From Antedon mediterranea (lineage: Eukaryota; Animalia; Echinodermata), in the NCBI RefSeq assembly GCF_964355755.1, contig NC_092679.1, positions 13,623,432 to 13,687,431 on the forward strand: 64,000 nt of DNA. The letters are read 5' to 3'. The position numbers and the translations under genes were made by a program. Below are positions 13,308-61,109 of the stretch, in pieces. Numbering within the stretch: position 1 is the first letter of the stretch; every line of letters begins with the position of its first letter. The notes under the pieces were generated by a model, which did no database searches, had not been told where the DNA came from, and saw only the letters and a program-made list of their open reading frames with translations.

Positions 13308-16300
13308 CTACTTGAATAAGTCTTGTATATGTGTCTTGATGTCCTCAAACTGTTTATCAGGTAAAGCCACCTGTTTTAGAATTTCTATAACTGTTTCTTC
13401 TGTCAATTTATTGTAGTCTTCTTCACCTAAAAAATTGCAAATTTAAATTAATTCATTATTTTAATTGGTTTCTCACAAGTACCGTACTGACGCGGGTATA
13501 AGCCCATACTCGGGTATAAGCCCACCCCCGACTTTTGACTAATTTTCATGAAAAATGAGGCACTCGGGTATAAGCCCACCCATTAATTCAAAGATCTACA
13601 GTGTGTGTATTATTTTGTATTTGGCGACGTCCATGCACCGAATACACCTACCTTTGATCATAACCAAGCTAGGCTAATATACGCTAGGCCATATGAGGCC
13701 TAGCGGTCCTGTTTTGTTTACACTCCATCGCGGTCGAAGATCGCTTCACACACGACGCTACAAGACGCCAAAACGGAAAACCACTATTTGGTATCGGCTG
13801 CAATAAACAAGCTTATTAAATTTCTTTGGTACATTTCTATTTAACGAACATTGTATACTTGCTTTTCTGCTTGATAAATTCTTGTACAATTGATGTTTAA
13901 AATAAGATATTCTACGATAAATTACACGAACTATAAGCTTGATTTCCGACACTCTACACCTCGTGTATTTAGAGGCAACGTCGTACACGTGAGGGCGCTC
14001 GCTCGCATGGTAGAATACACAGTGTACATGTGCTGTTTTTGACGATCTGCATTTTTGGATCCTCGGGTATAAGCCCACCCCCCAAACTTGACGTGATTTC
14101 ATGTTCAAGGGGGGTGGGGCTTATACCCGCGTCAGTACGGTAGTTATTTTAATTCTATTCCTATTCATTCATACAAAACCATTAAAAAGTACTGAAGCAA
14201 TTTCACCCACTTCCCCCTTGTCTGTCAAATTAACGATTCCTTATTTTAATATGTACAGTATTTGCCCAATATTACATGGTCAATACGGACATATTATTAC
14301 CATGAATAAGTGCATTTTGTAGGATTGTAGATAATAAATAAATCATTTTGTTTGACAAATCCAAAAGAAATTACTCACATTCTTTAGCTTTCGCCATCTT
14401 GGCTGATGGCTTGATCACAAGTGATCCGGTCCACTACTACTTCCTGGAAATCTGTTGTTATTGTTTCTAGGTGACGTCATACTTTTTCGTAGCAGTGATG
14501 TGTATACGTGATCGAGATATATGTATATGTTAGAGATAATTCAAAAAGACAGTACACAAAAACTTACTGACCACCTCAACTCCATCGATCCAACGGGCAA
14601 CATCAAGTTCACGTTTGAGGAAGAAGATCAGGGAAAAATCCCCTTCCTGGACACATTAATCGTCAGGAAAGAAGATGGGTCACTGAAATTACTGGTGTAC
14701 AGGAAAAAGACACACACTGACCAGTACCTGAATTTCCAATCCCAACACCCGCTACACCAAAAGCTAGGGGTCATCAGAACGCTCATGGATAGAATGGAGA
14801 ACATAGTTACAGAGGAGGCGGATAAGAAAGAAGAAGAAGTTAAGATCAGGAATGCGCTTAGGAAATGTGGATACCCCAAGTGGTCACTGGACAGAGTCAA
14901 ACAACAAATAAAAAATAAACAACCAAAGCAAAGGAAGAAGAACAAAGAGTCGGAGACACCATCTAAGGGTATGGTTGTTTTACCTTATATCGAGGGAGTG
15001 GCAGAACAAGCTCAAAAGATTTTTAAGAAATATGGTATTTCCACCGCCATGCGTCCAACGAACACTCTTAAAAGCATTTTAGTCCACCCCAAAGACAAGA
15101 AGGACATCACCCAAACAAGTGACATTGTTTACGACATCCCTTGCAAAAGTTGCAAGAAATCGTATATTGGGGAAACAGGTCGTCAATTTGGAGTAAGACT
15201 GAAAGAACACCAAAAAGACACTGAAACGGTCACCGATCGTAAATACACTCGGGCAACAAGAAAGGAATCAACATCCGAAATCCACAAATCCGCCATCACA
15301 GACCATGCAGCGCAAGAAAACCATATCATCGATTGGGATGGGGCAAAAATTCTTGACAGAGACTCTAACCCATTCAAGCGTAGAATCAGAGAGGCAATCC
15401 AAATCAGAAAGAGGGGGACTAACGCAATCAACCGCGACGAAGGGGCTGTATATCTCGATCACGTATACACATCACTGCTACGAAAAAGTATGACGTCACC
15501 TAGAAACAATAACAACAGATTTCCAGGAAGTAGTAGTGGACCGGATCACTTGTGATCAAGCCATCAGCCAAGATGGCGAAAGCTAAAGAATGTGAGTAAT
15601 TTCTTTTGGATTTGTCAAACAAAATGATTTATATATTATTACCATTTTTACATCCAACATTGAGTTTTGAAGAAAGAAATGTCTTAGGCTGTGATTTACA
15701 ACACCCTTCTTACTTCACACCCTTACTATATAGAACTGAGCAGTTCATACATAAATGGATGCTAGCTGCTGTGTTGTGAACAGGAAGGTCAGTTACAGCC
15801 AAACATCTGCTGGTATGTTCACATCTTCTCATAAGATTTAACCGGTCCTCAGGCAGCCTTTCCAGGTGGTTTAGTAAATACAAGGAATCCATGTCTGTTT
15901 ATACAACACACCAACGTAGAACCGTATTGAGTTAGTATGTTGTATAAACAGACCTTTAAGCTCCATCTACACTATCAAACTAGTTTGACAAAGTGTGATG
16001 TGTCCAATGGTAGTGATATGCCCCAATATGGTAGTGACACAGTATAACATCATCATGGCCATATATAGGCACACATTTTTTTGTCACATAAAGTTTGATA
16101 ATGTAGACAGAGCTTTAGACGTAGGTAAGCTTACCTAAGCACTGTCAATCAGATGGATAATATAAGTATTATTATTTTGTGTGGAGTTTAATTTAACACA
16201 AAACAACTTACATTTAACTAGAATATGTCCTGAAAGTTCACACACTGCTGGATTGAAAGCCATAAAGGTCTTAGCACCTGAAATTTTAATAATCATGTAA

Positions 16301-36746: not shown

Positions 36747-38722
36747 TTACATTGTTATTTGTACTCCTCTGCGCGAACACTCCACCAACAACTCTATGTT
36801 TGTATCAATTGACAAATTGCATTTCTGTATGTCAAGTTTATGTAATTTAGGAGACTTACTTAAGAAAGTAACAAGTAAAGTACCATCAATGTTACTTAAA
36901 TCATTACCCCCAATATAAAGCTGTTGTAATTGTAACTCATCTCCTTTATACGTTATGTTCATTGCATTCACTATGTCACCTGATAGCTGGCACATGGTTA
37001 TCTCAAGTAAACTCAGCTTAGGAGACTTATTCAACAGATTACCAAGTAAAGTACCATTGATGTCACTAAAATCATTTTCCCTTATAAAAATTTCTTGCAA
37101 TTGCAAATCATCTCTTGCATATGCTATAAGCAGATTATTCATTATGAGTCCCGTTAGTTTGCACTTATTCATGTCAAGATGTCTCAGATTAGCAAACTTA
37201 CTTAGGAAAGTACCCAGTAGGGTACCATGAATGTTACTGAGATCATTATTTGAAATAACAAGCATTTGTAATCGAAATTCATCTCCTACATATACTCTCA
37301 TTATTGCATTCATTATGTCACCTGATAGCTTGCAACTGGACATCTCAAGTTCAAGCAGCTGAGACTTACTCAAGAAAATTCCCAGTGAACTACCATTAAC
37401 GTCACCTAAATAATTACCCGAAATATACAATTTCTTTAATTCTACCGCACACTCATATACTTTGATAGTTTCATTTATTATACGTCCTGATAGTTTACAA
37501 TTGTTTACGCCAAGTACACTCAGCTTACTGGCCTTTCTCAAGAAAATACCCAGTGAAGTACCGTCAATATCACTAACATCATTACCAGAAATGATCAAAT
37601 TTTGTAATTGTAACTCATCTCTTTCATACGTTCTAATCATTCTTTTCACTATGTCACCTGGTAAATGGCACATGGTTAGCTCAAGTACCATCAGCTTAGG
37701 AGACTTATTCAAGAAATTACACAGTAGAGTACCATCAATGTCAGTGAAATTATTGTTCCCTATAACAAGCTCATGTAATGGAAACTCATCTCCTTCATAC
37801 ACTCTGAACATTTGATTAATTATGTGCCCTGATAGTTTGCAATCATGCATGACAAGTTTCCTCAGTTTAGAAGACTTACTCAAGAAATTACCAAGTAGAG
37901 TACCATCAATATTACTGAAATCATTACACCCAATATAGAGGACCTGAAATTCTGAGTGTATACATACGCCTGTATACATTCTGATAAAATTATTCATTAC
38001 GTCACCTGATAGTTTGCAGTTATGCATCTCAAGTTGACTCAGTTTAGGAGTCTTAATGAAGAAAGTACACAGTAAAGTACCATCAATGTTACGGATGTCA
38101 TTATTCGTAATATAAAGGTCTTGTAACTCTACTGCACCTGTATACGCTCTGACCATTTCGTTCATCACATCACCTGATAGTTTGCAATCTCTCATTTCAA
38201 GCGCAGTCAACTTAGTAAGCCTACTTATGAAAGTACCCAGTAGCATACCATGAATGTTACTGAAATCATTATTTGAAATAACAAGCAATTCTATTTGTAA
38301 CTCATCTCCTACATACCCTTTCATCATTGCATTCATTATGCCACCTGATAGTTTGCAATCTTTTATGTCAAGTTCAGTCAGCTTAGTAAACCTACTTAGG
38401 AAAGTACCCAGTAGCGTACCATGAATGTTACTGAAATCATTATTTGAAATATTAAGCACTTGTATTTGTAACTCATCTCCTACAAACCCTGTCATCATGG
38501 CATTCATTACGTCACCTGATAGTTTACAATTTTTCATGTTCAGTGTAAGTAGATTAGGAGCCTTACTCAAGAAAGTACCTAGTAAAGTACCACCAATTTT
38601 ACTAACATCTGTATTATCAATATTTAACTCTCGTAAATCTAAATCTCTTCCTTCATACATTTGCAGCAATTCCTTTACTTGATTGCAATCATTTATGTTA
38701 CGTTTAAGGCAATAATCCTCAC
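36747..38722 (-). CDS. Terminal exon of an NLR-like gene: ribonuclease-inhibitor-type LRR solenoid (11 x ~57-aa double repeats)
   Basis: Uninterrupted ORF with repeated LQ.L.IS.ND.SNI.GTLLG.FLSK..KL..L....CKLSG.IMN. Strong acceptor ttctttttcttcag at 38723, phase 1, in frame with the upstream exon. Confidence 0.9.
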
Positions 38723-39361
38723 CTGAAGAAAAAGAATTTAGATTAAACAGATCCATATTCAAGGTGATGACGATCTTAATAAGTACCAAACATTATTAAC
38801 GATTCGACACTTACTCGGATCGTTCCTTAAAAACAATAAAAATAATGCAAATGTGCAATATTTACTTTCAATGTAAATACATTACTGTAGTTAAGAGCTC
38901 AATCATTATGATCTTAACCCTCAAAATTATCCAGAAAACAGTTTAAACATTTTTAAACCACAAACATGGTTTATTTTTATATCACTATGAGGACATAAAT
39001 ATGAAAATAATAAACCCTTGTCTTACTCATTTTTTCCCATTTAATTGAAAATAAGAGCTTTTTGTAACTCTTGTATTTTACTCAATATCTGGCAAATAAC
39101 AACTTTATTAATTGCTCACCAGGCTTTCGCTACAAACCAATAATATTGATAGTATCAGTGTAGGCTAGCATTTTAAAAGGATTAATACAAAAAATTATAT
39201 ATTTATTTATATTTATTGGGAGTAAAAAATTACATACATTAAAAATAATAAAATCATAACAATATCACAAAACTCTGCTGTTTCTTGACCATGTGCCTAA
39301 TATGTTTCCAGAGAAATAGTGAGCAATATAAATGATTACAATAACCAGATAAAATACATAC

Positions 39362-39908
39362 CGGTAATTAAAATCTCGTTCTGTGCGAGTATCCCAAGAA
39401 GTGTTGCAAACCGTTTTATTTCTGTGGGTAAAATTAGCTTGGTCTCTAATTTGAATACTACATCCCAAAGTGTGGTATAAAGGAAATGTCCTAGTCGATA
39501 CACATCAGTAACCCTCTTTAACGCACCTGCCTCAGCTTGGTTCACAGCCCTAAACAGTTGTTTGCGAAATGGCGACAACGTATTCATATCAGTGGGTATA
39601 TTCTGGATATTGTTATCTTCTATATACTGAAGTACAAGACGTTCGGCATCCTTCGGACCCGTTAGTATTGTAATCTCCAACAGCAGATTGACATCGCTAG
39701 ATGTTATGTATCCTTTGCCACCAGTGCTATCTAGTTGATTGAATAAAGAGTGTCCTGTGAGCCCTTCGTTGTCAAAGCTTGCTATTGGTAATTTTTCAAA
39801 TAGGCAAAATATCAGCAACTTGATGTTTTCACCCTCGTAGTGCTTACTGAGTGCAGCTTTCAACTCGGAAAACTTACTTTCAAGGTCTGTAATTTCTTTA
39901 CTTTGTAT
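39362..39908 (-). CDS. Exon encoding tandem death-effector-domain-like helical domains, spliced to the LRR exon
   Basis: Acceptor tttttgcag and donor G|gtatgt; 547 bp, phase 0 to 1. LFNQLDSTG..GYITSSDVNLLLEI and LSPFRKQLF..LWDVVFKLE resemble DED1/DED2 patterns. A possible start exon is 40099-40076 (MGLYSEIQ|gtagtc). Confidence 0.72.
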
Positions 39909-40115
39909 CTGCAAAAATATGTTTACAAATAAATTAAATCTTATTATGTCACTACATATGTTTGTCATCATCTGCATCATAATCGTTTCGTCACATATAC
40001 ATAATAACGCATTATTATTCATTTTAACCTTGCATTGATTAAGTAAATTTATATGAAATAGCATTTAAAGACTACCTGTATTTCGCTGTATAGGCCCATA
40101 TATTTATGCTAGATA

Positions 40116-40231
40116 CAGTACAACCCCTATTAAGGGGTCATCTTTGAAACTCAAAATTGTCTCCTTAATAGGGGTGTCAGCTAGATAGGTGTGTCCCCTG
40201 GATAAGGGTGTCATAACAGATGGGATCTACT
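40116..40231. mobile_element. Small Tc1/mariner-like MITE
   Basis: ta-cagtacaacccct ... gggatctactg ends; internal cctattaagg/ccttaatagg inverted motif. Confidence 0.5.
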
Positions 40232-40746
40232 GTTTTGTAAATTTCAAGTGAATGCTTCGAGCATATATCTGGACATACAAAATGACCAAAAAAAGAGTAC
40301 TTTAGGAATGGGTTTATAATATAAAATAGTAATTCGAACTTGTTTGAGTTTTCTAGACACCCCCATAGGATCTTATAATGCTGAATCATAGAGATGTATT
40401 TGGTCTTATTATATTATGTGTTATAAATGTAATTATATTTTTAACCACCTACTGTAGTTATTTTATTTGCATATGTTTGTAGTAAATATTTCTATAACAA
40501 ATATTGCCATGTGAATGCACTTTCAGAAAATATAATCTGCGAGAAAAATATACTTCCAATGGAGAATCTCAAATGTTATATTTTACCTTTAAGAAGGAAA
40601 AACAGAAACCATTATGATTAAAATGAATAAGTGGGCTATTACAGCTTCTACTTTTGTCATAAAAACCCAAAGCTTACTATAGTACAACAGCGTGCTGGTT
40701 GTATTTAACAGGCACACAGCAACCGAAGAGGAATATTCCCCCATGA

Positions 40747-42564
40747 CTAATCAAATACCAAAAAATGTTCAATAATTACCTTTCTACCGTGTATTTTCTG
40801 TGGTGTCATAACTGCCAAAGACTGCAATTCATCTGCCTTCACGCCTCCATGACTAAACCGTCTCCATACATAAGTGCATAGATTCTTCCAAACTTCAGTG
40901 GAATTACTTCTTCCTACCAATATCAGACCATTGCCTTTTCCAGGAGCCACAAAAACAGGATGGGTATCAATGATAAACGGATGGTTTTTTAAACATCCTA
41001 TTGTTATGGCTAAAGGGGTGCTAACATAAATCGCCGCAAAGTTTTGGGCAGATAATTCACAAAGCTTTGTGTGAAGTTTTGATCTTCCTTGTTTTGAAAA
41101 CACAGTATCTGCATATGGAAGCTCTTCTGAAAAGTCATATGATGACGATAATAGATTTTGTTGATGTAAAATGTGGTAGGCTCCCATTGCATCATACAGT
41201 TTCTCAACATCTCTGTGTTCATTTATTTTAGGAGGCAGATTAAGGATTGTATCTTCAGAAAGGTCACTAAAGGCTGAACATACATTGTACTCGTCTGTGT
41301 CGCGTTCATTTAGTATCTTGTCAGCAATTTTAACTGCAATAAAAGCACATGAATTTGTTGCTTCATTCAGATTGATTGCAGACTTTATCTGATTTGATAT
41401 TTCATAGGTATCTGTAAGGTTGGCTAATTGTGTATCAACATGCTCATCAAGCTGTTTTAGTGAAGAAGCTTGACTAACATTAAGGTTAACGACATCAATG
41501 TCACCCATGCCATCTTGATTAAGAATATGATTTATTTCTTCCAAAGTCAGACGACTCCCTTTTGCAACAGCACAACCTCTATATATGTTTTCTAAGCCAA
41601 TCCAGCATGTAGCTCTTTCAACCTCATATTTTGTGTCTTCCATTGGCAACTCTTTTTTTTCAAGTTTGGATTTGACAAGTGATTTCATTTGCGATTGGGT
41701 ATTGCATCCAGATGCCCTTGCCTCTAAAATCCATGGACATTTTAACGAGGGATTGATAAGACAAAAGAAAATCATCCCTAGTGCCCACATATCTATGAGC
41801 ATTAGGTCTTCTATTGAGGCATTCTTCAATAATTCATCGTTAACAAGAATTTCAGGGGCCATGTATGGAACAGTACCACGATCAAGACATTTAGACATTG
41901 AGGATAGCATTGACTGTGTCTGTATAAATTTTGATCTACCTTCCCCAAAATCAGTCAGCTTGCAAATTATTGGTTTAGTCTGAAACTGTTCAAAAAGTTC
42001 AGAAGAAGGTAAGTTAGCGTAGTGTTGATTACTCACCAAAATGTTTTCTGGCTTGAGGTCCCGGTGTGCAATGCCCTGTGAGTGCATGTAAGAAATACCG
42101 TTAATTATCTCTTTTCCTGCGTAACATACTAAATGATGAAAACTGTTGCAGTCATACATGTCTAGTTTCAGTAAAAGACTGGAAAGGTTGCTTATCTGGA
42201 AATCTTCACCAAATGACTTAAAGTCAAAGTAAATGTATTCTAACATGATTGCATAAGGTTGTTTGGACAATGCTTTGAGCTTTACAATATTATCATGCTT
42301 GAGCTCATGCAGTAGAGCCACCTCTTTAAAAAACATCTTTTTGTCTTCTGTGTCAAGCATTTGCGGCATTTTTTTTATGATTACACATTCAGGTTCTGTC
42401 ATTCCTGGGAGTTGATACGTGCTTGTATACACCACCTGCCCAAAAGACCCATTACCAACGATGCTGGTTACAGGTAGTTTATTACATTCAAATTCATGAA
42501 TTCCATGAAGTTGAATCATATCTGTTTTTTTCACCTTCAACTGAGGAATCTTTAATTCAGCCAT
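40747..42564 (-). CDS. Intronless Ser/Thr protein kinase with a C-terminal putative cysteine-peptidase-like domain, 605 aa
   Basis: Complete kinase motifs VGNGSFGQV, IIKK, FFKEV, HRDLKPENILV, DFG, GTVPYMAPE, DMWALG. The C-terminal ~240 aa has VSQ..NSCAFIAV..FIIDTHP. An acceptor tttgtttcag lies just upstream of the ATG. Confidence 0.9.
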   Translation of the reverse strand: MAELKIPQLKVKKTDMIQLHGIHEFECNKLPVTSIVGNGSFGQVVYTSTYQLPGMTEPECVIIKKMPQMLDTEDKKMFFKEVALLHELKHDNIVKLKALSKQPYAIMLEYIYFDFKSFGEDFQISNLSSLLLKLDMYDCNSFHHLVCYAGKEIINGISYMHSQGIAHRDLKPENILVSNQHYANLPSSELFEQFQTKPIICKLTDFGEGRSKFIQTQSMLSSMSKCLDRGTVPYMAPEILVNDELLKNASIEDLMLIDMWALGMIFFCLINPSLKCPWILEARASGCNTQSQMKSLVKSKLEKKELPMEDTKYEVERATCWIGLENIYRGCAVAKGSRLTLEEINHILNQDGMGDIDVVNLNVSQASSLKQLDEHVDTQLANLTDTYEISNQIKSAINLNEATNSCAFIAVKIADKILNERDTDEYNVCSAFSDLSEDTILNLPPKINEHRDVEKLYDAMGAYHILHQQNLLSSSYDFSEELPYADTVFSKQGRSKLHTKLCELSAQNFAAIYVSTPLAITIGCLKNHPFIIDTHPVFVAPGKGNGLILVGRSNSTEVWKNLCTYVWRRFSHGGVKADELQSLAVMTPQKIHGRKVIIEHFLVFD

Positions 42565-44743
42565 TTTCTAGTATATTGTTCTGAAACAAATGTGTAGAAA
42601 TTATTTTAATTGTAAATTATTCTAAAATTTAAATTAAATTTGTTTTCATTTTTTTCGTATATATACTGTAACAATGCTTTCAATGTTATTCAACTTGTAA
42701 TCTTGAATTATAAAATTACTACTACAACTACATACAAGTATTCGTACTATGCACATCAAGATCTCAGTTTTCTAGACACCTTAAATACGAGGGCACTCGA
42801 CAGTCGTAATATTTCATTTTGTATCATTTTGGTAAGTTATAATTTAGGTTTTAAGTAATTTTAAAACTTTCTTTAGAAACTTTACTGTGGAGTGTACAAT
42901 TTTTGACTTCAATAATTTGCAGAGCGAAAACCGTAAACTTCGTCTAGGTCAATGTTTTGTTTTGGATCTGACCAGCAATAAAGCGTGGCAGCATGTTAAA
43001 TTGCTGTGCAAAATAAGAAATTAAACCTATTATTGAATATATTGTTATGAGTGTGTACATATTACATGCAATAGCTTAGTTTATTGACCCGAGATAAAAT
43101 AACTTCTAATATAGCTAGAGTTCAAGTATTTATATTATAATTATTATAAAGTTGTATAGTATGGGAACAATAGACTTTTCTGAAGTTTTGTATACAATTA
43201 TACATCTTAAACCATGCATATCAAACACTCCCGCAAGGTACCTTATGATATAAACTAATATTGTGCTTATACAATAATATCCAGACTTATGGTTTACTAA
43301 CTTGCAATATGAAGAACAATACATATTATTATTATTATGTTATTAATTAATTATATATAATTAATTATTATTATTATTTTCTAGTGCCTCAATAATACGA
43401 ATGCACCCAAGTATATACAGAAAAGCAGATTTTTAAGAAAGCCAACAGAATAGTAGCTGTTTGCAACTGAAAAAAATGTTATACAAGGGAAGAAAGTATA
43501 CGTTTCCTGGTTGATATACATCAATACTATATAATAACACTTTAAATTAAAAACCTGCTAAGACAGGTCTTAATAGTGATACAGTATACTTTTTGTTATA
43601 AGAAAGTTTACTATAATTGAGATCAATTGTGCAAATCTCTAACATAAGTTATAGCTAAGTAGTGTTTTCTAAATCATTACTCAAAAGATATTTTCAGTAA
43701 GTATTTGGGTGCGGTTGAAAAATGCATGGTGTAAAATTTAACCTGTGTAATCTTAAATTATGCGTGCAACCTATGTTAGAAGTAAACCAATGATAAGTAG
43801 GCTTAATTTAGATATTGTAAACTGTAAAGTTTCCAAGGTATAATCTATCCATTTATTGTGGAAGTCGCCACAATTCAAACATAAAATAGCAATGATCTAA
43901 GGAAAAAATGTTCAATTTTACACATTTAAAAATTAAAATACAACATCTAAATACATAACGTATAAGTAAATAGTAATAATAATTTATACACACGATGACG
44001 TCAAACGCATATACTGTAAGCTGTATCTCGCTTTCGCATAAGATCTATGGTTGTATTACATAAATTAATATTGCGATCGCCTCGACGGCTGGATACATAT
44101 AACAAAAATTCATCGGTAGAAAGTGATTAGTGATTTGCAGATGCATTTTGACTAACGTAAGTTTATGGTTTCGCATTTTGGGAAAAAGGGCGTGGCAGGA
44201 AAAAAGAATACGTGCGATGACATCGAGAAACTACATGTCTTGTCCTTTTATCGCCAAGCGGTTCACCTTAAATAATATATTATATAATATTAAGTTACTA
44301 TAGGTCCTATTACTATTTCTGAGAAATTTAGTTTTTTTTTTTTCAAAATAATCTGCAGTATGCTACCAGTGAATGTAGGTCCGCATTACGTCATTACATA
44401 GACATGCATAGACCGCCGTTAGATAGATAGTTTAGCAGAATGGGAGGTTACTTACCGTATTCTTCAAAAGACATATACCTCTTTTGGTGACACAGTATAG
44501 TCGTGTATACTTTGTAGTTTTACCAGAGAAAAGTGAAATCCACTCTCCCTGATGTTGACTACCGTCCCAGTAGGCCCATCTGAAATGATTCTAAACCCGT
44601 GATATTGAAAGATCATTCGATTTAGGCAGGGATGGATTTAGCCAATCAAACGTGAGTACAACTTCAATAACAGAAGGTTGTTCAATTCAATTTTGCTTTT
44701 ATTTCGGATTCACGTCAATAGTTACACAATCGATTACAGCATA

Positions 44744-46801
44744 CAGGGCCGTAACCAGGTTTGACGGCGGGGTGGATCGTTAAGTTGTTTAGTGGAACCC
44801 AGGGGCGGATCCAGGATATTGAAATAGGGGTGGCGTAGCTTTGCGAGCGAAGCGAGCAAACATTGGCTGGGGGCCAGGGGGCCGCCAAGGGCCTCCGGTC
44901 GGGATCCAGGGGCCGACGGCCCCTGGAAATTTTTGGCGTTCTAGCGCATTGTAAGTCGTTTAAAAACGATTTACAAACATCTCATAATGTCATTTACCAA
45001 ACACTCTAAAGCTCGCAAATTACGACATGTGGAATATGCAGCTGATACTTACCTAGGGTACCAAAAGCAAGCTAACAACTTGCCTGTACTTTACATCTAA
45101 ATTTTTACAACGCGACGATGTTTTTCACCGTTATATTATAAACTTGTCCTAGCCTAGGCCGGTATTATTTTTTTACACGCGCGCCGCGGGTCGATCGCGG
45201 TCACTATACTTCGCATGCAGCTAAAGTAAAATGACGTCACGTTAAAGCAGGTCGTCACAGAGTCTCATGCATATTAATGAAGCAAACTTGCTGAGAGTGT
45301 TTTCACCAGTACCACGCAACACATTTATCGAAACTCCGAGCCATCGACTGACGGTCATGTTTTTGACAATTAAAATCACGGCATATTCAACGACCTGGTT
45401 TAAACGATAGTTTAAAAATTAGCGGTCGGCTCGATTACATTATATTTAGTGATTTGAAAAAAACAAAACACCTCTTTTGTCATGATGTCATCGCGATGTG
45501 TTAATGAGAATCATCGACGGGAAAGCAAATAAAACAACAAGGGTCATGAAATGCTGCAGCATTGTTAATATTCTAATAGTAATACGTTTTAATAAAATTT
45601 AGCCCTAACGGGATAATTTTCATAGGCATACAGTCCTAGCCTTTGTTTTTATTGTACTTGATAAATGGGCGCGTAGTATAGTAGCACTGACCATGTGGCT
45701 TCATCAACTCTATTGATCGTCTGAGGTACGCTACTCTACAATACGGGAGTGACGATCACAAAGGATGCCGACCTGCTTAGTGGAACGCGACCAAGCTCAC
45801 CACGTGACTTTTATCAACTTGCTCCTTTTACACTTAACTGTGAATGATCGTTGGTAACGCTAGAGATTGATAGTACACAAAGGATGTCGACGTACATGCT
45901 TGGTGGAATGCGATCAAGCTGACGATGTGCTCCGACGTACTATTTTCACTATGAAAATGTGCAAACCATCGGTGATTGATGACCGTCGAAACGATACGTG
46001 TTTTTAAAATCTATTTAATTAAACAAAAAAATACGCCCCCGCTAGATCCGCCACTGGAACCATACCCTCGAAATTTTTTTCTCTATATGCCTATGGCCGC
46101 AAATCCCATTTCCGGCTATTCTCTTTTGTTTATGAACTATATTGTTGGTGTAATTTCCAGCCCACAAATTTCAATTGCCGACCTTAATATTGCCGACCTT
46201 ATATTGTCAGAGGACGGCATTCTCTTGCCGACCGAAATTAGGCTAGATCCCTCCTCCTTTCAAGCCTCCTAGCAACAACATGGTACATTAGGGATCGTAT
46301 CATTGAGACTTTAACAGGCATATTCACCATCATGTGGTGTTTAGGTTAAAAACCATGGAATTAAGATGATCCCTGAATTCACTCAACCATTGCATCTTGC
46401 ACTTGCGTCCGTGTGAGTGTGAGCTGCATGCTTTCTCTATCAAGCAGCTGGCTGGGCACGTCACACACGCACGCGGAGATCTGTGTAGGGGAATACCCTG
46501 TTATGTCAACCAAACAACAACTATGCTCTGTGTACAGCTCGCTAGCTCCAGAACCACGATGTTCAGCAGTTATCAAATAGAACTTATCTTGTAAATTTTA
46601 GTGTTAGGTTTTTATATTTTAGTTAAAATATATATATATATATATTAATTAAATTTATTAAGGCTTGACTAGGCTTGTAGTGAACAATCGTCGTGTTGTG
46701 TTAGTATGCCCAGCAAAAAAAAAGTGGCAGGCCAAGCGGAACTCGCTGTTCAGCGGGGGGGATCGTACGATCCCCCCGATCCCCCCCTGGTTACGGGCCT
46801 G
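44744..46801. mobile_element. Non-autonomous hAT-like DNA transposon, 5-bp TSD GCATA (outer element)
   Basis: TIR CAGGGCCGTAACCAGG / CCTGGTTACGGGCCTG; GCATA at 44739-44743 and 46802-46806. Confidence 0.85.
44800..46056. mobile_element. Nested non-autonomous hAT-like element, 5-bp TSD GAACC
   Basis: TIR CAGGGGCGGATC / GATCCGCCACTG; GAACC at 44795-44799 and 46057-46061. Confidence 0.85.
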
Positions 46802-49134: not shown

Positions 49135-49738
49135 CTAATTCAATGGATTCCTATACCACTGTATGGTTTGTCTATTGCCTAGATCCTTTGTAATTTGACG
49201 TAAACTGCTGCTCTGATTTTGAGGTCGTGTCATGTCTGGTGGTCTTGGTGCTACTTTTGAGGGTTTTGCCATTGCCAATTTTCCTGTGGCATTTATTGAT
49301 GGTAATGTCAAACTAGTAGTATGTTCGTCGTCACTTGGAAGACGAGTTGCAATCAGCCGTGGTGGGCTCAGTTGTGGCCTGTTCGTTAGTCGTCCATTTG
49401 GTGGTTGCTTCCTCGAAGCTTTCTTGTCTGTTGCCGTCTGTCGATCAGTGTTATTCGAGGAACGTCTTCCAAAAGCAGCATTATCAAGCGATGGACTGCT
49501 TCCTGACTGGATGGTTGAAAATGAGGCAGCTTTACGTCCGACGCTTTCATCTGAAAGTTTTTTTTCTTGTATCAGAAGTGTAGTGGTTGCCCATCTTTTG
49601 ACAGCTTGCAGTCGTTGGGCTAGAGTTGCCTCTATGGAGTCTTTTAAATAGAGGACTAGATTTACCAGCAAGTTCAACCATATCCAAAAGACTTCTCTCG
49701 TGCTGCTTCTCTCTTTGAGGCTTTCTTGTACCCTTCAT
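49135..49738 (-). CDS. Unknown Ser/Thr/Arg/Pro-rich protein (~200 aa) broken by a 1-nt frameshift in an A8 run; pseudogene or assembly error
   Basis: The ATG follows acceptor tttactttgtag. ORF 49738-49547 (MKGTRKPQREK..DTRKK) joins ORF 49677-49135 (LSDESVGRKAAS..WYRNPLN*) if one A at 49558-49565 is removed. Candidate 5' UTR exons lie at ~49962-49880 and from 50237 upward. Confidence 0.55.
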
Positions 49739-59212: not shown

Positions 59213-60905
59213 TCATGATCTGGAAACATAAAGGCTAGGGCCTAACTTGGTTCCCTGTGGGACACCAGCTTTTAAGTAAGAGTAATTAGATAAGGTACCA
59301 TTATATTTAACACACTGCATACGCATAAAAAGAAAATCACACAACCATGGTACCAAAGCCCCCCTGACACCAATATCAATGATCTTATTAACAAGGATGG
59401 TATGGTCGATAAGATCAAAGGCCTTGGAGAAATCAGTAAGAACCATGGTACCAACATTGTGCTTATTCTCAGCACCTTGACAGAGATAATGCACCAAGTG
59501 GGTCAGGTAATGAGCAGTAGACAAACCCTTAACATTTCCAAACTGGTTAACATCGATTTTTGAACTTATATCTTGTAAGATCCAGTCTGTGATAAACTCC
59601 TCAGCTACTTTGGCAAACACAGAAGTGATGGAGATAGGTCTGAGTTTGTCAATAGTAGGAGGCTGAACCTTGGGCACAGGGACTACAACTGCCTTTTTCC
59701 ACTGAGAAGGGACAATGCCTTCAGAAAAAGAACAGTTGAGTATATCACAAAGTGGTTCACAAAACTCCATGGCAAATAATTTAACAATTTTGGGTGGGAC
59801 CAAATCTGGTCCGCAGGCCTTGTTTTCTTTAATAGATCTTAATTTTTTATAAATATCCCAAGGGTAAAGTTTGGGTGCAGGTTTGTCAGAGGGAAGGAAT
59901 GCAGGGAGTTGAGTTTTATTTAGAATAGGGATGTGAGCACTAATGTTAGTAAACAAGTCATTGATGACATTAGCAATGGATTTATGATCCAATGGAGAGA
60001 TTTCAGGAACTGGTATATTGAGATCAATTTTCTTAGTGTTTTTCATAACTCTGACCTGTTGGTGCCATTTACCTGGGTCAGTTTTTTGCAGGTGTCTAAC
60101 TCTATCTACATTAAATTTTACTTTAGCTTTAATGATTTCCCTCTTGACTTTGTTTCTGCAAGCTTTCCAATGGGTTAAGTTATTGGATTTAAACGCTTTT
60201 TGGCGTTCAGAAATAGAATTTCTGATATTTTGTGTTAGCCAAGGTTTATTAGTATTGTGCGTTTTAATATTTTTCAACGGGAAAAACTTATTAATAGCAG
60301 TGATCAGTTTGTAATAGAAAGCATCAACTTTACTCTGTGTAGAAATGCAGCTATAAATATCATTCCAATTCTGAGATACAATCCAGGTGCCAAACGATCT
60401 TATTCTGGTATCATATAAGGGACGAACACTTATAGATTTGACAACATTTTTGATAGCTTGAACTTTAGGTTTCCATAAAATACAGATGTGGTCACTAAAA
60501 CCAAGAGGAGACATCGCTTCCGGAGTATGGTATTTAGTTTCAAAATTAGTCAAGATGAAGTCTAATGTAGCAAGTTCACGGGTTGGAAAATTAACAATTT
60601 GTTTTAAACAGTTATTACGTAAAATGTAGTTAATGTTCATTCTGTTGAAATCGCCCATAATGCAAAAGCCAGTCTGAAGTGATCTAGAACGAATAAGGTC
60701 AATCGTTTCACAAATATGCCGCTCAAGAAGAAGTTGATATGGGGAGTCTGTTGTGATGTAGATAGCACAAACAACGATTGATGATATTCCTCTTGGTAGA
60801 CGAGAACATTTTAAGTTTATCCAAATGACTTCCAATTCAGGTGGTACAGGGATGTCAAGAATTGCACATTCAATGTTATCCTTCACATAAATTGCCACAC
60901 CGCCT
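59213..60905 (-). mobile_element. LINE ORF2 fragment (APE endonuclease plus RT to domain 4), uninterrupted 561-aa frame, truncated at both ends
   Basis: GGVAIYVK, GDFN, FPTR..TLDFILTN, SDH, KACGPD, LRPISITSVFAKVAE, QFG, DFSKAFD, GVPQGTKLGP. The YADD motif is absent. Confidence 0.92.
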
Positions 60906-61109
60906 CTAACTAACTAATAATTAATTGTGATTCATGCTTGTGAAGATATGATTACACGTGATTTCGTTAAATCGTGCGTAGACCGCGTAATTTTTTAGTC
61001 TTGGCCATAAAAAATATACTCTGAAAAATTGAATTACCGACCGACCGACCAACCGACCGACATAGTGAGCTGCAGAATATTCCCTTCATTTGAGGTAATC
61101 TATATATGA

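What the first reader, a model, noticed from the sequence alone, without database searches (positions are those of the whole stretch)
36747..42564. Possible kinase-peptidase-DED-DED-LRR chimeric immune receptor (~1435 aa) with no NTPase
Seen in sequence: the kinase ORF has a good donor AAG|GTAATT at 40780/40779, exactly after codon 595 (phase 0) and only 10 codons before its stop. The DED-like exon (39908-39362) begins in phase 0 and splices in phase 1 to the LRR exon (38722-36747). All three are co-oriented and join with no stop codon. Established: animal NLRs are death-fold-NACHT-LRR proteins, and kinase or protease effectors fused to STAND sensors are known mainly from plants, fungi and bacteria. 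Inference: this could be an LRR sensor hard-wired to its own kinase and protease, formed by capture of a probably transposon-borne kinase exon. The alternative is two separate genes, with the DED-LRR gene starting at 40099 (MGLYSEIQ).
Basis: partly seen in the sequence, partly recalled or inferred. Interest (0 to 1): 0.82.

Follow-up and report, generated by a model that had tools for sequence, protein, structure and literature searches.

The report
Transposon kinase exon beside truncated NLR
In what is likely a feather-star genome, an intact exon for a kinase and a predicted ubiquitin-removing protease, likely left behind by a jumping gene, sits just upstream of an immune-sensor-type gene that lacks its ATP switch; the two join in one reading frame on paper but more likely work apart, and no RNA data were found to decide.

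Summary
In detail: the three exons join into 1,435 codons without a stop. The parts are now identified. The 605-codon ORF is a Ser/Thr kinase plus a predicted viral-tegument-like deubiquitinase (Z 17.6 to 8add; Cys406, Asp533-x-His535 intact). Its longer relatives continue into a Mutator (MULE) transposase, so it is likely that transposon's 5' coding exon; no transposase and no terminal inverted repeat were found in the window. The downstream exons are a predicted caspase-8-like tandem DED and about eleven 57-residue LRR units, related to Antedon DED-DED-NACHT-LRR receptors but without NACHT. For fusion: the donor is the ORF's best (8/9), lies in phase 0 where relatives appear to use phase 2, and the DED's usual start ATG reads ATT. 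Against: two other in-frame starts exist, five candidate acceptors and an AATAAA lie nearer, and none of 61 DED relatives or 5 longer kinase relatives shows the fusion. No RNA run was listed. Odds: separate units 0.45, translated fusion 0.33, silent relic 0.22. The kinase-deubiquitinase-MULE element was not found in print in my searches but was noted earlier in this scan.

The parts
40747..42564 (-). Kinase plus VTD-type deubiquitinase ORF, 605 codons; likely the 5' coding exon of a Mutator-like transposase gene
   Evidence: Pfam Pkinase 33-277, E 3e-29; about 597-aa relatives at up to 52% identity over 97% of the length; longer relatives end in a MULE transposase
41734..42468 (-). Ser/Thr kinase domain, catalytic motifs intact (K64, E81, HRDLKPEN, DFG, APE)
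40789..41499 (-). Predicted viral-tegument-like deubiquitinase domain (Q365, C406, D533-x-H535 invariant in 28 aligned sequences)
   Evidence: AlphaFold2 pLDDT 90.5; Foldseek 8adc E 2e-5, 2j7q E 5e-4; Z 17.6, rmsd 3.0 over 188 residues to 8add
42581..42600 (-). Candidate splice acceptor (TTTGTTTCAG) 16 nt before the kinase ATG
   Evidence: sequence; use not shown
40774..40782 (-). Candidate donor AAG|GTAATT after codon 595, phase 0; 13 nt downstream of the family's inferred phase-2 donor position, which here reads ATA
40462..40603 (-). Competing acceptors (first exon bases 40586 and 40536; 5 and 14 residues to a stop) and AATAAA at 40467
   Evidence: AATAAA occurs 1.6 times per kb on this strand, so its presence is not evidence by itself
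40116..40232 (.). Short repeat with inverted ends (CAGTAG...TACTG, TA on one side); MITE-like, label recalled
   Evidence: many contigs of run X1 lie on it and 8 break off at 40113
40076..40099 (-). Candidate short coding start (MGLYSEIQ), donor CAG|GTAGTC 6/9, phase 0
   Evidence: use not shown
39909..40064 (-). 52 stop-free codons in frame with the DED exon, holding six in-frame ATGs: a third possible start
   Evidence: 98 of 20,000 shuffles are open this far (test chosen after seeing it)
39362..39908 (-). Predicted tandem death-effector-domain exon; codon 6 (39893-39891) is ATT where the closest relatives start with Met
   Evidence: pLDDT 93.3; Z 14.9, rmsd 2.5 over 155 residues to caspase-8 tDED 4zbw; 63% identity to XP_071955348
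36747..38722 (-). LRR exon, 657 codons, about 11 units of 57 residues, ribonuclease-inhibitor-like; no NACHT before it
   Evidence: 48-52% identity to the LRR regions of Antedon NLR models P0253 and P0274; no NACHT match in the window
42766..42780 (-). First copy of an exact 15-nt direct repeat that flanks the kinase exon (unexplained)
   Evidence: 21 of 2,000 resamplings give such a pair
40347..40361 (-). Second copy of the 15-nt direct repeat, 2,419 nt from the first

Best explanation
An intact kinase-deubiquitinase exon, likely the stranded first coding exon of a Mutator-type transposon, lies 871 bases upstream of a tandem-DED plus LRR gene that lacks NACHT, and the two likely make separate products. 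The kinase unit would end at its own stop (40747) or splice to a near acceptor with a short tail and use the AATAAA at 40467; in its element of origin it would phosphorylate and deubiquitinate, probably to protect or control the transposase it is fused to (inferred from Erven et al.'s proposal for Helitron VTDs). The NLR-derived unit would start from a short upstream extension (the 40099 mini-exon or an in-frame ATG at 40064-39968), which would have freed the old ATG to change to ATT. Without NACHT it could not oligomerise by ATP exchange, so it would likely act as a decoy or adaptor whose tandem DED joins or caps caspase-8/FADD-type DED filaments while the LRR binds a ligand. Shown: sequence, frames, motifs, homologies. 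Predicted: both folds. Inferred: transposon origin, splice pattern, every function.
For: Transposon origin: 4 of the 5 family members among 42 longer hits carry D, DGE, CxxH and E transposase motifs and the fifth the post-catalytic part (motifs read by me); Pfam MULE E 2e-4 to 9e-4 in 3 of 7 such proteins scanned, all below the gathering score; Atlas 0.95 with MULE clusters; the window kinase nests in that clade, away from crinoid kinase-DED proteins (quick tree); a second, broken copy lies in run X1. Separate products: no fusion in 5 longer family members or 61 DED relatives; five acceptor candidates downstream of the stop lie before 39908, and the DED acceptor has no more pyrimidines than any of them; two alternative in-frame starts, one open for 52 codons (98 of 20,000 shuffles); 5 relatives with short N-terminal extensions also lack the Met.
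Against: The donor is the best in the ORF and is in the only phase that reads through the DED exon; a phase-2 donor would stop after 15 residues, phase 1 after 2. The start Met is lost although only 3 of 40 conserved DED positions deviate, and 6 of 11 internal DED modules lack it against 6 of 44 terminal ones. A transposon piece with no transposase and no detectable ends has kept 605 open codons and all catalytic residues. The mini-exon donor is weak (6/9). No promoter for a separate DED-LRR transcript was identified.
Confidence: 0.45

Rival explanations
1. Exon capture: the transposon piece sits in the first intron of the NLR-derived gene, is spliced in through its own acceptor (42580) and its shifted phase-0 donor, and yields a 1,435-residue kinase-deubiquitinase-DED-DED-LRR protein. 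Ligand binding at the LRR would cluster the tandem DEDs, letting the kinases phosphorylate each other and bringing the deubiquitinase to the signalling complex, in place of the NACHT switch.
For: Open join; best donor of the ORF, P about 0.006 by chance; phase differs from the family's inferred phase 2 (69 of 92 relatives that reach the motif end at the same codon; 73 of 74 ending within one codon of it end in a residue whose codon can end in G) and only phase 0 reads through; ATG to ATT; 11 of 55 DED relatives are internal modules, fused behind Roco, ZU5, kinase and TPR parts among others; capture by transposon-supplied splice sites is documented (Cosby et al., bioRxiv 10.1101/2020.05.07.082677, passages).
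Against: No such fusion among 5 longer family members or 61 DED relatives; nearer acceptors and an AATAAA; other starts are available; the native donor phase of this lineage's element is unknown, so the shift may be inherited; the kinase deviates at 17 of 132 conserved positions, the most of 18 sequences, which could be drift or sparse sampling.
Confidence: 0.33
2. A silent relic: a recently rearranged, haplotype-specific NLR copy that lost NACHT and its start codon, with a recent transposon fragment beside or inside it; the frames are open only because the changes are young.
For: Loss of NACHT and of the usual ATG; one 6,208-nt contig of run X1 covers 38563-44770 at depth 144.8 with no second allele laid over most of it, while other contigs lie at 264-303 (depth is a hint, not a copy number); the other kinase copy seen is frame-broken.
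Against: All three frames are free of stops (595 + 182 + 657 codons), while the kinase and LRR exons hold 45-108 stops in their other two frames; DED and catalytic positions are conserved.
Confidence: 0.22

Closest known systems
VTD (viral-tegument-like) deubiquitinases, Erven et al. 2022, PMC9741609 (abstract, section 6, passages, and a term search of 3 supplementary files)
   Same: Predicted fold (Z 17.6 to 8add, 14.7 to M48 2j7q), Cys plus Asp-x-His triad, transposon association; the paper says cnidarians have VTDs fused to several transposon-associated domains.
   Different: The paper names Helitrons as carriers; 'kinase', 'Mutator' and 'MULE' occur 0 times in its main text, and 'kinase' and 'MULE' 0 times in the 3 supplementary files searched. 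Here the VTD follows a kinase and, in relatives, precedes a MULE transposase. Activity untested.
Mutator/MULE superfamily, Dupeyron et al. 2019, PMC6446971 (passages)
   Same: Relatives carry DDE with CxxH and SWIM-like parts; the paper lists extra cargo, such as an 'Ovarian Tumour Gene' entry for Hydra MuDR-6_HM.
   Different: 'kinase', 'peptidase' and 'protease' occur 0 times in its main text; supplements not read. The window copy has no transposase, inverted repeats or target-site duplication that I could find.
Crinoid DED-DED-NACHT-LRR gene models of Antedon mediterranea (XP_071949634, XP_071956244, XP_071955348)
   Same: Tandem DED 54-63% identical; 57-residue LRR units 48-52% identical in the first two.
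   Different: No NACHT or helical domains in the window; start Met is ATT; these are automatic gene models, not studied proteins.
Host-transposase fusion genes (KRABINER, SETMAR), Cosby et al., bioRxiv 10.1101/2020.05.07.082677 (passages)
   Same: Transposon exon with its own splice site next to a host gene.
   Different: There mostly an acceptor captures a transposase behind host exons; here a donor would put non-transposase enzymes in front of host exons, and the junction is unproven.
Crinoid kinase-DED-DED models (XP_071963970, XP_071963914)
   Same: A kinase directly before the same tandem-DED module, so the order is tolerated in this group.
   Different: Different kinase (25-27% identity, outside the clade), no VTD, no LRR.

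Membership tests
VTD deubiquitinase family | Papain-like fold closest to herpesviral tegument DUBs | tested here: met
   predicted model
VTD deubiquitinase family | Catalytic Cys and invariant Asp-x-His | tested here: met
   C406, D533-T-H535 invariant in 28 sequences; motif from PMC9741609
VTD deubiquitinase family | Cleaves ubiquitin or NEDD8 conjugates | not testable with these tools
   needs an enzyme assay
Mutator/MULE transposon (window copy) | DDE transposase in the element | tested here: not met
   no match by tblastn with 10 proteins or by a profile of the relatives' transposase part over six frames of the window
Mutator/MULE transposon (window copy) | Terminal inverted repeats with 8-11 nt target-site duplication | tested here: inconclusive
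   none above chance; some MULE groups are listed without TIRs
Mutator/MULE transposon (family of the exon) | Same kinase-VTD unit fused to a MULE transposase in relatives | tested here: met
   P0122-P0125, P0248; Pfam scores below the gathering cut-off
Mutator/MULE transposon (family of the exon) | Several copies per genome | tested here: inconclusive
   one further, broken copy in run X1; no genome held
Animal NLR (death fold-NACHT-LRR) | N-terminal death-fold effector | tested here: met
   predicted tandem DED; no Pfam DED hit on the window exon itself
Animal NLR (death fold-NACHT-LRR) | NACHT NTPase | tested here: not met
Animal NLR (death fold-NACHT-LRR) | C-terminal ribonuclease-inhibitor-type LRRs | tested here: met
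Transposon-host fusion gene | Open frame across the splice | tested here: met
Transposon-host fusion gene | Spliced transcript across the junction | not testable with these tools
   no RNA holder listed
Transposon-host fusion gene | Conserved in related genomes or under purifying selection | tested here: inconclusive
   no fused relative, but no close orthologue either (best 63%)

The most novel reading that the evidence does not exclude
A feather star has swapped an NLR's ATP switch for a transposon's enzymes: a Mutator-derived kinase and herpes-tegument-like deubiquitinase exon, with its donor moved into frame, is spliced onto tandem DEDs and an LRR arm, making a one-chain sensor that writes phosphate and erases ubiquitin.
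Probability: 0.25. Interest if true: 0.8.

Novelty: new variant of a known kind. Interest (0 to 1): 0.5.

Why it matters
Firm part: relatives of this exon in corals, sea anemones and a sea cucumber show a kinase-deubiquitinase unit that is fused to a Mutator transposase where the longer form is on record, which widens the known carriers of VTD deubiquitinases beyond Helitrons and supplies a splice-ready enzyme cassette to host genomes. If the junction is real, it would be a young, single-locus case of an animal immune sensor gaining enzymatic effectors from a transposon while losing NACHT, testable with one RT-PCR. If not, it is an ordinary transposon fragment beside a degenerate NLR copy.

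Tried and rejected
No genome is held for the window, so paralogous loci and other element copies could not be read. Sequencing runs: no RNA holder listed; X1, X2, X4 are contigs of one sample, X5 is guessed RNA but covers repeats and intergenic DNA; X5 has no cover over the kinase, which proves nothing as that run is about half the size. Locus searches returned only generic kinases (79 loci each, best-segment identity 36% or less) and the family-specific DNA pattern found 0 matches in viral and prokaryote contigs, so the family's exon structure is inferred from protein ends only. Sequence search of the peptidase against solved structures gave nothing under E 0.2. Atlas search with the DED exon gave only a weak DED lead (0.82). 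Window ORFs are not in the protein collection. Pack-MULE idea (one element holding kinase, DED and LRR): no inverted ends with a target duplication above chance; not supported. Retrocopy idea for the 15-nt direct repeat: no poly(A) before the second copy; rejected. NACHT remnants in the intron: none. The tree is the quick version, the careful search did not finish; it used 50 rows. No complex prediction was run. Literature: ten searches, seen as listings except three papers opened; none listed a kinase-VTD-MULE element or a NACHT-less DED-LRR gene of crinoids. Subscription journals and Repbase are not covered, and unread supplements of PMC6446971 or figure-only content in PMC9741609 may bear on that claim.
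Full report
Observation. The kinase ORF runs 42564-40747 (605 codons), AAG|GTAATT follows codon 595, and joining 42564-40780, 39908-39362 and 38722-36747 gives 1,435 residues with no internal stop; the MGLYSEIQ alternative gives 848. Against a recalled donor consensus the site scores 8/9, the only such site in the ORF; 46 of 128,000 window positions score that well, so P is about 0.006 for the 16 phase-0 slots at the ORF end. No genome is held and no RNA holder was listed, so the splice itself could not be tested.

Organism. All 16 DED relatives looked up by name, and P0163, are Antedon mediterranea models, at 63% identity at best. The window is likely from a feather star; earlier AI notes on this genome say the same, which is not independent evidence.

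The kinase exon. Residues 33-277 are a kinase with K64, E81, HRDLKPEN, DFG and APE intact. Residues 356-592 fold with pLDDT 90.5 and match viral-tegument-like deubiquitinases: Foldseek 8adc E 2e-5 and M48 2j7q E 5e-4, herpesviral large tegument proteins, Z 17.6 with rmsd 3.0 over 188 residues to 8add. C406 and D533-x-H535 are invariant in 28 sequences, and Asp-x-His is the family's hallmark (PMC9741609). Near-length relatives at about 50% identity come from corals, a sea cucumber and unnamed records. Among 42 longer hits, 5 belong to the family; 4 carry D, DGE, CxxH and E motifs of a Mutator transposase and the fifth its post-catalytic part (my reading of the alignment). Pfam MULE scores are weak (E 2e-4 to 9e-4 in 3 of 7, below cut-off), and the Atlas places P0123 760-1300 with MULE clusters at 0.95. 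In a quick tree of 50 rows the window kinase is sister to the Holothuria protein inside this clade, apart from the crinoid kinase-DED proteins. The window holds no transposase and no inverted ends above chance. Run X1 holds a second copy with 66 differences over about 400 nt and a 59-nt gap; 25 of the 40 listed differences (33 more not shown) are at third codon positions, P 1.5e-4, as expected if the lineages diverged under selection. An earlier AI note reports a damaged full-length element of this build elsewhere in the genome; I reached the reading before seeing it and could not check that locus.

The family's donor. Of 212 proteins examined, 92 reach the QSL motif near the end; 69 stop exactly 11 residues after it. 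Of the 74 ending at 10-12, the last residue is R 43, K 22, T 4, M 2, W 1, E 1, N 1: 73 can have a codon ending in G (23 of 24 distinct tails; background 71%; many rows are near-identical). This fits NN|GT RA, a phase-2 donor whose intron supplies the apparent stop; it is inferred, as I had no DNA for these records. In the window that codon is ATA, and the donor is 13 nt further on in phase 0. Only phase 0 reads through the DED exon; phase 2 stops after 15 residues. So a donor here is inherited, but its phase may be new.

The downstream gene. The 182-codon exon has no Pfam DED hit, but many relatives do; its model (pLDDT 93.3) matches the caspase-8 tandem DED (TM 0.69; Z 14.9, rmsd 2.5 over 155). 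The module is promiscuous: among 61 relatives scanned it occurs with NACHT-LRR, Roco, ZU5, RING/NHL, VLIG, ubiquitin, MAM, PARP14 and kinase parts. The LRR exon has 11 units spaced 171 nt, resembles ribonuclease inhibitor (E 2.5e-11) and is 48-52% identical to the LRRs of two DED-DED-NACHT-LRR models. No NACHT lies in the intron or the window. The five closest full-length relatives start with Met at exon codon 6, where the window has ATT; this is one of 3 deviations at 40 conserved positions.

Weighing the splice. For fusion: donor strength and phase; the lost Met (absent in 6 of 11 internal modules against 6 of 44 terminal ones; 7 of 62 hits left out because they do not cover the first DED); 11 of 55 relatives carry the module internally; and a transposon piece without transposase has kept 605 open codons. 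Against: none of 5 longer family members and none of 61 DED relatives shows the fusion, and the 3 kinase-bearing ones have another kinase (25-27% identity for the two that aligned); five acceptor candidates lie between the kinase stop and 39908 (40586, 40536, 40380, 40268, 40197), and 40536 gives a 14-residue tail with AATAAA just after the stop, though AATAAA is common here; the DED frame is open for 52 codons upstream with six ATGs (98 of 20,000 shuffles), a coincidence as large as the donor's; 5 relatives with short extensions also lack the Met; and the kinase deviates at 17 of 132 conserved positions, the most of 18 sequences. One X1 contig of 6,208 nt covers 38563-44770 at depth 144.8 with no second allele over most of it, against 264-303 for other contigs: a hint that the whole unit is on one haplotype, which fits any of the three readings. 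An exact 15-nt direct repeat flanks the kinase exon and occurs nowhere else in the window (21 of 2,000 resamplings); it could mark an insertion into the NLR gene's first intron, which would favour either capture or knock-out, but I could not explain it. My rough weighing gives separate products 0.45, translated fusion 0.33, silent relic 0.22; these are judgements, and isoforms may coexist.

Mechanism. Most likely the kinase-VTD unit is transposon equipment: Erven et al. propose that Helitron VTDs protect transposition proteins from proteasomal loss, and a kinase on the same chain would add phospho-control (inference). The NACHT-less DED-DED-LRR protein would be unable to use the ATP switch of NLRs (established knowledge) and would act as a decoy or adaptor at DED filaments (inference from the caspase-8/FLIP-like fold). 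Under fusion, LRR-driven DED clustering would activate the kinase in trans and deliver the deubiquitinase.

Novelty. VTDs on transposons, MULE cargo and capture by transposon splice sites are all known (PMC9741609: abstract, section 6, passages, term search of supplements; PMC6446971: passages; bioRxiv 10.1101/2020.05.07.082677: passages). The kinase-VTD-MULE build was not found in ten searches but is already in this scan's notes. The chimeric receptor would be new, yet rests on an untested junction at one locus. Verdict: new variant of a known kind, interest 0.5.

Noticed in passing
window:40347-40361 and 42766-42780: Exact 15-nt direct repeat flanking the kinase exon, 2,419 nt apart; only two exact copies in the window. 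In runs X1 and X2 a contig fits 21 nt ending at 42779 and then goes on into a repeat like 51074, so the motif may be an element end.
   Followed up: partly
proteins P0122-P0125, P0248, P0121, P0084: Kinase-VTD-MULE transposase architecture; P0123-P0125 are single long proteins from Logan and ENA records, while the window's subfamily appears to have an intron after the VTD.
   Followed up: partly
proteins P0251-P0311: A crinoid tandem-DED module, mostly under Pfam's cut-off, fused to many partners (NACHT-LRR, Roco, RING/NHL, VLIG, ZU5, kinase, MAM, PARP14, TPR); some internal copies still carry the old start Met.
   Followed up: partly
window:44440-44720 (- strand): Stretch with GATTGG and TGACGT boxes (labels recalled) ending in an 8/9 donor ACG|GTAAGT at 44455: a candidate first exon upstream of both units.
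   Followed up: no
window:47732-48726: About 1-kb element with 168-nt inverted arms (92%) built of 16-nt units; very high depth in all four runs; foldback/MITE-like.
   Followed up: no
window:32831-33304 (+): Exon-like ORF with weak matches to FGF and beta-trefoil chains (best E 0.002); no Pfam hit.
   Followed up: partly
window:40541-40597: 57 nt holding the competing acceptor tract also match another X1 contig (11 differences, depth 303) and an X5 contig: a dispersed piece of unknown kind.
   Followed up: no
window:8921-10153, 14512-15555, 59213-60913: Retroelement remains: gag-protease, GIY-YIG-bearing and endonuclease-reverse-transcriptase frames.
   Followed up: no
window:47589-47664 and 49162-49230: Two short near-exact direct repeats (33 and 26 nt) about 1.57 kb apart on either side of the inverted-arm element; the second pair lies in a 199-codon ORF with no Pfam hit.
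   Followed up: no
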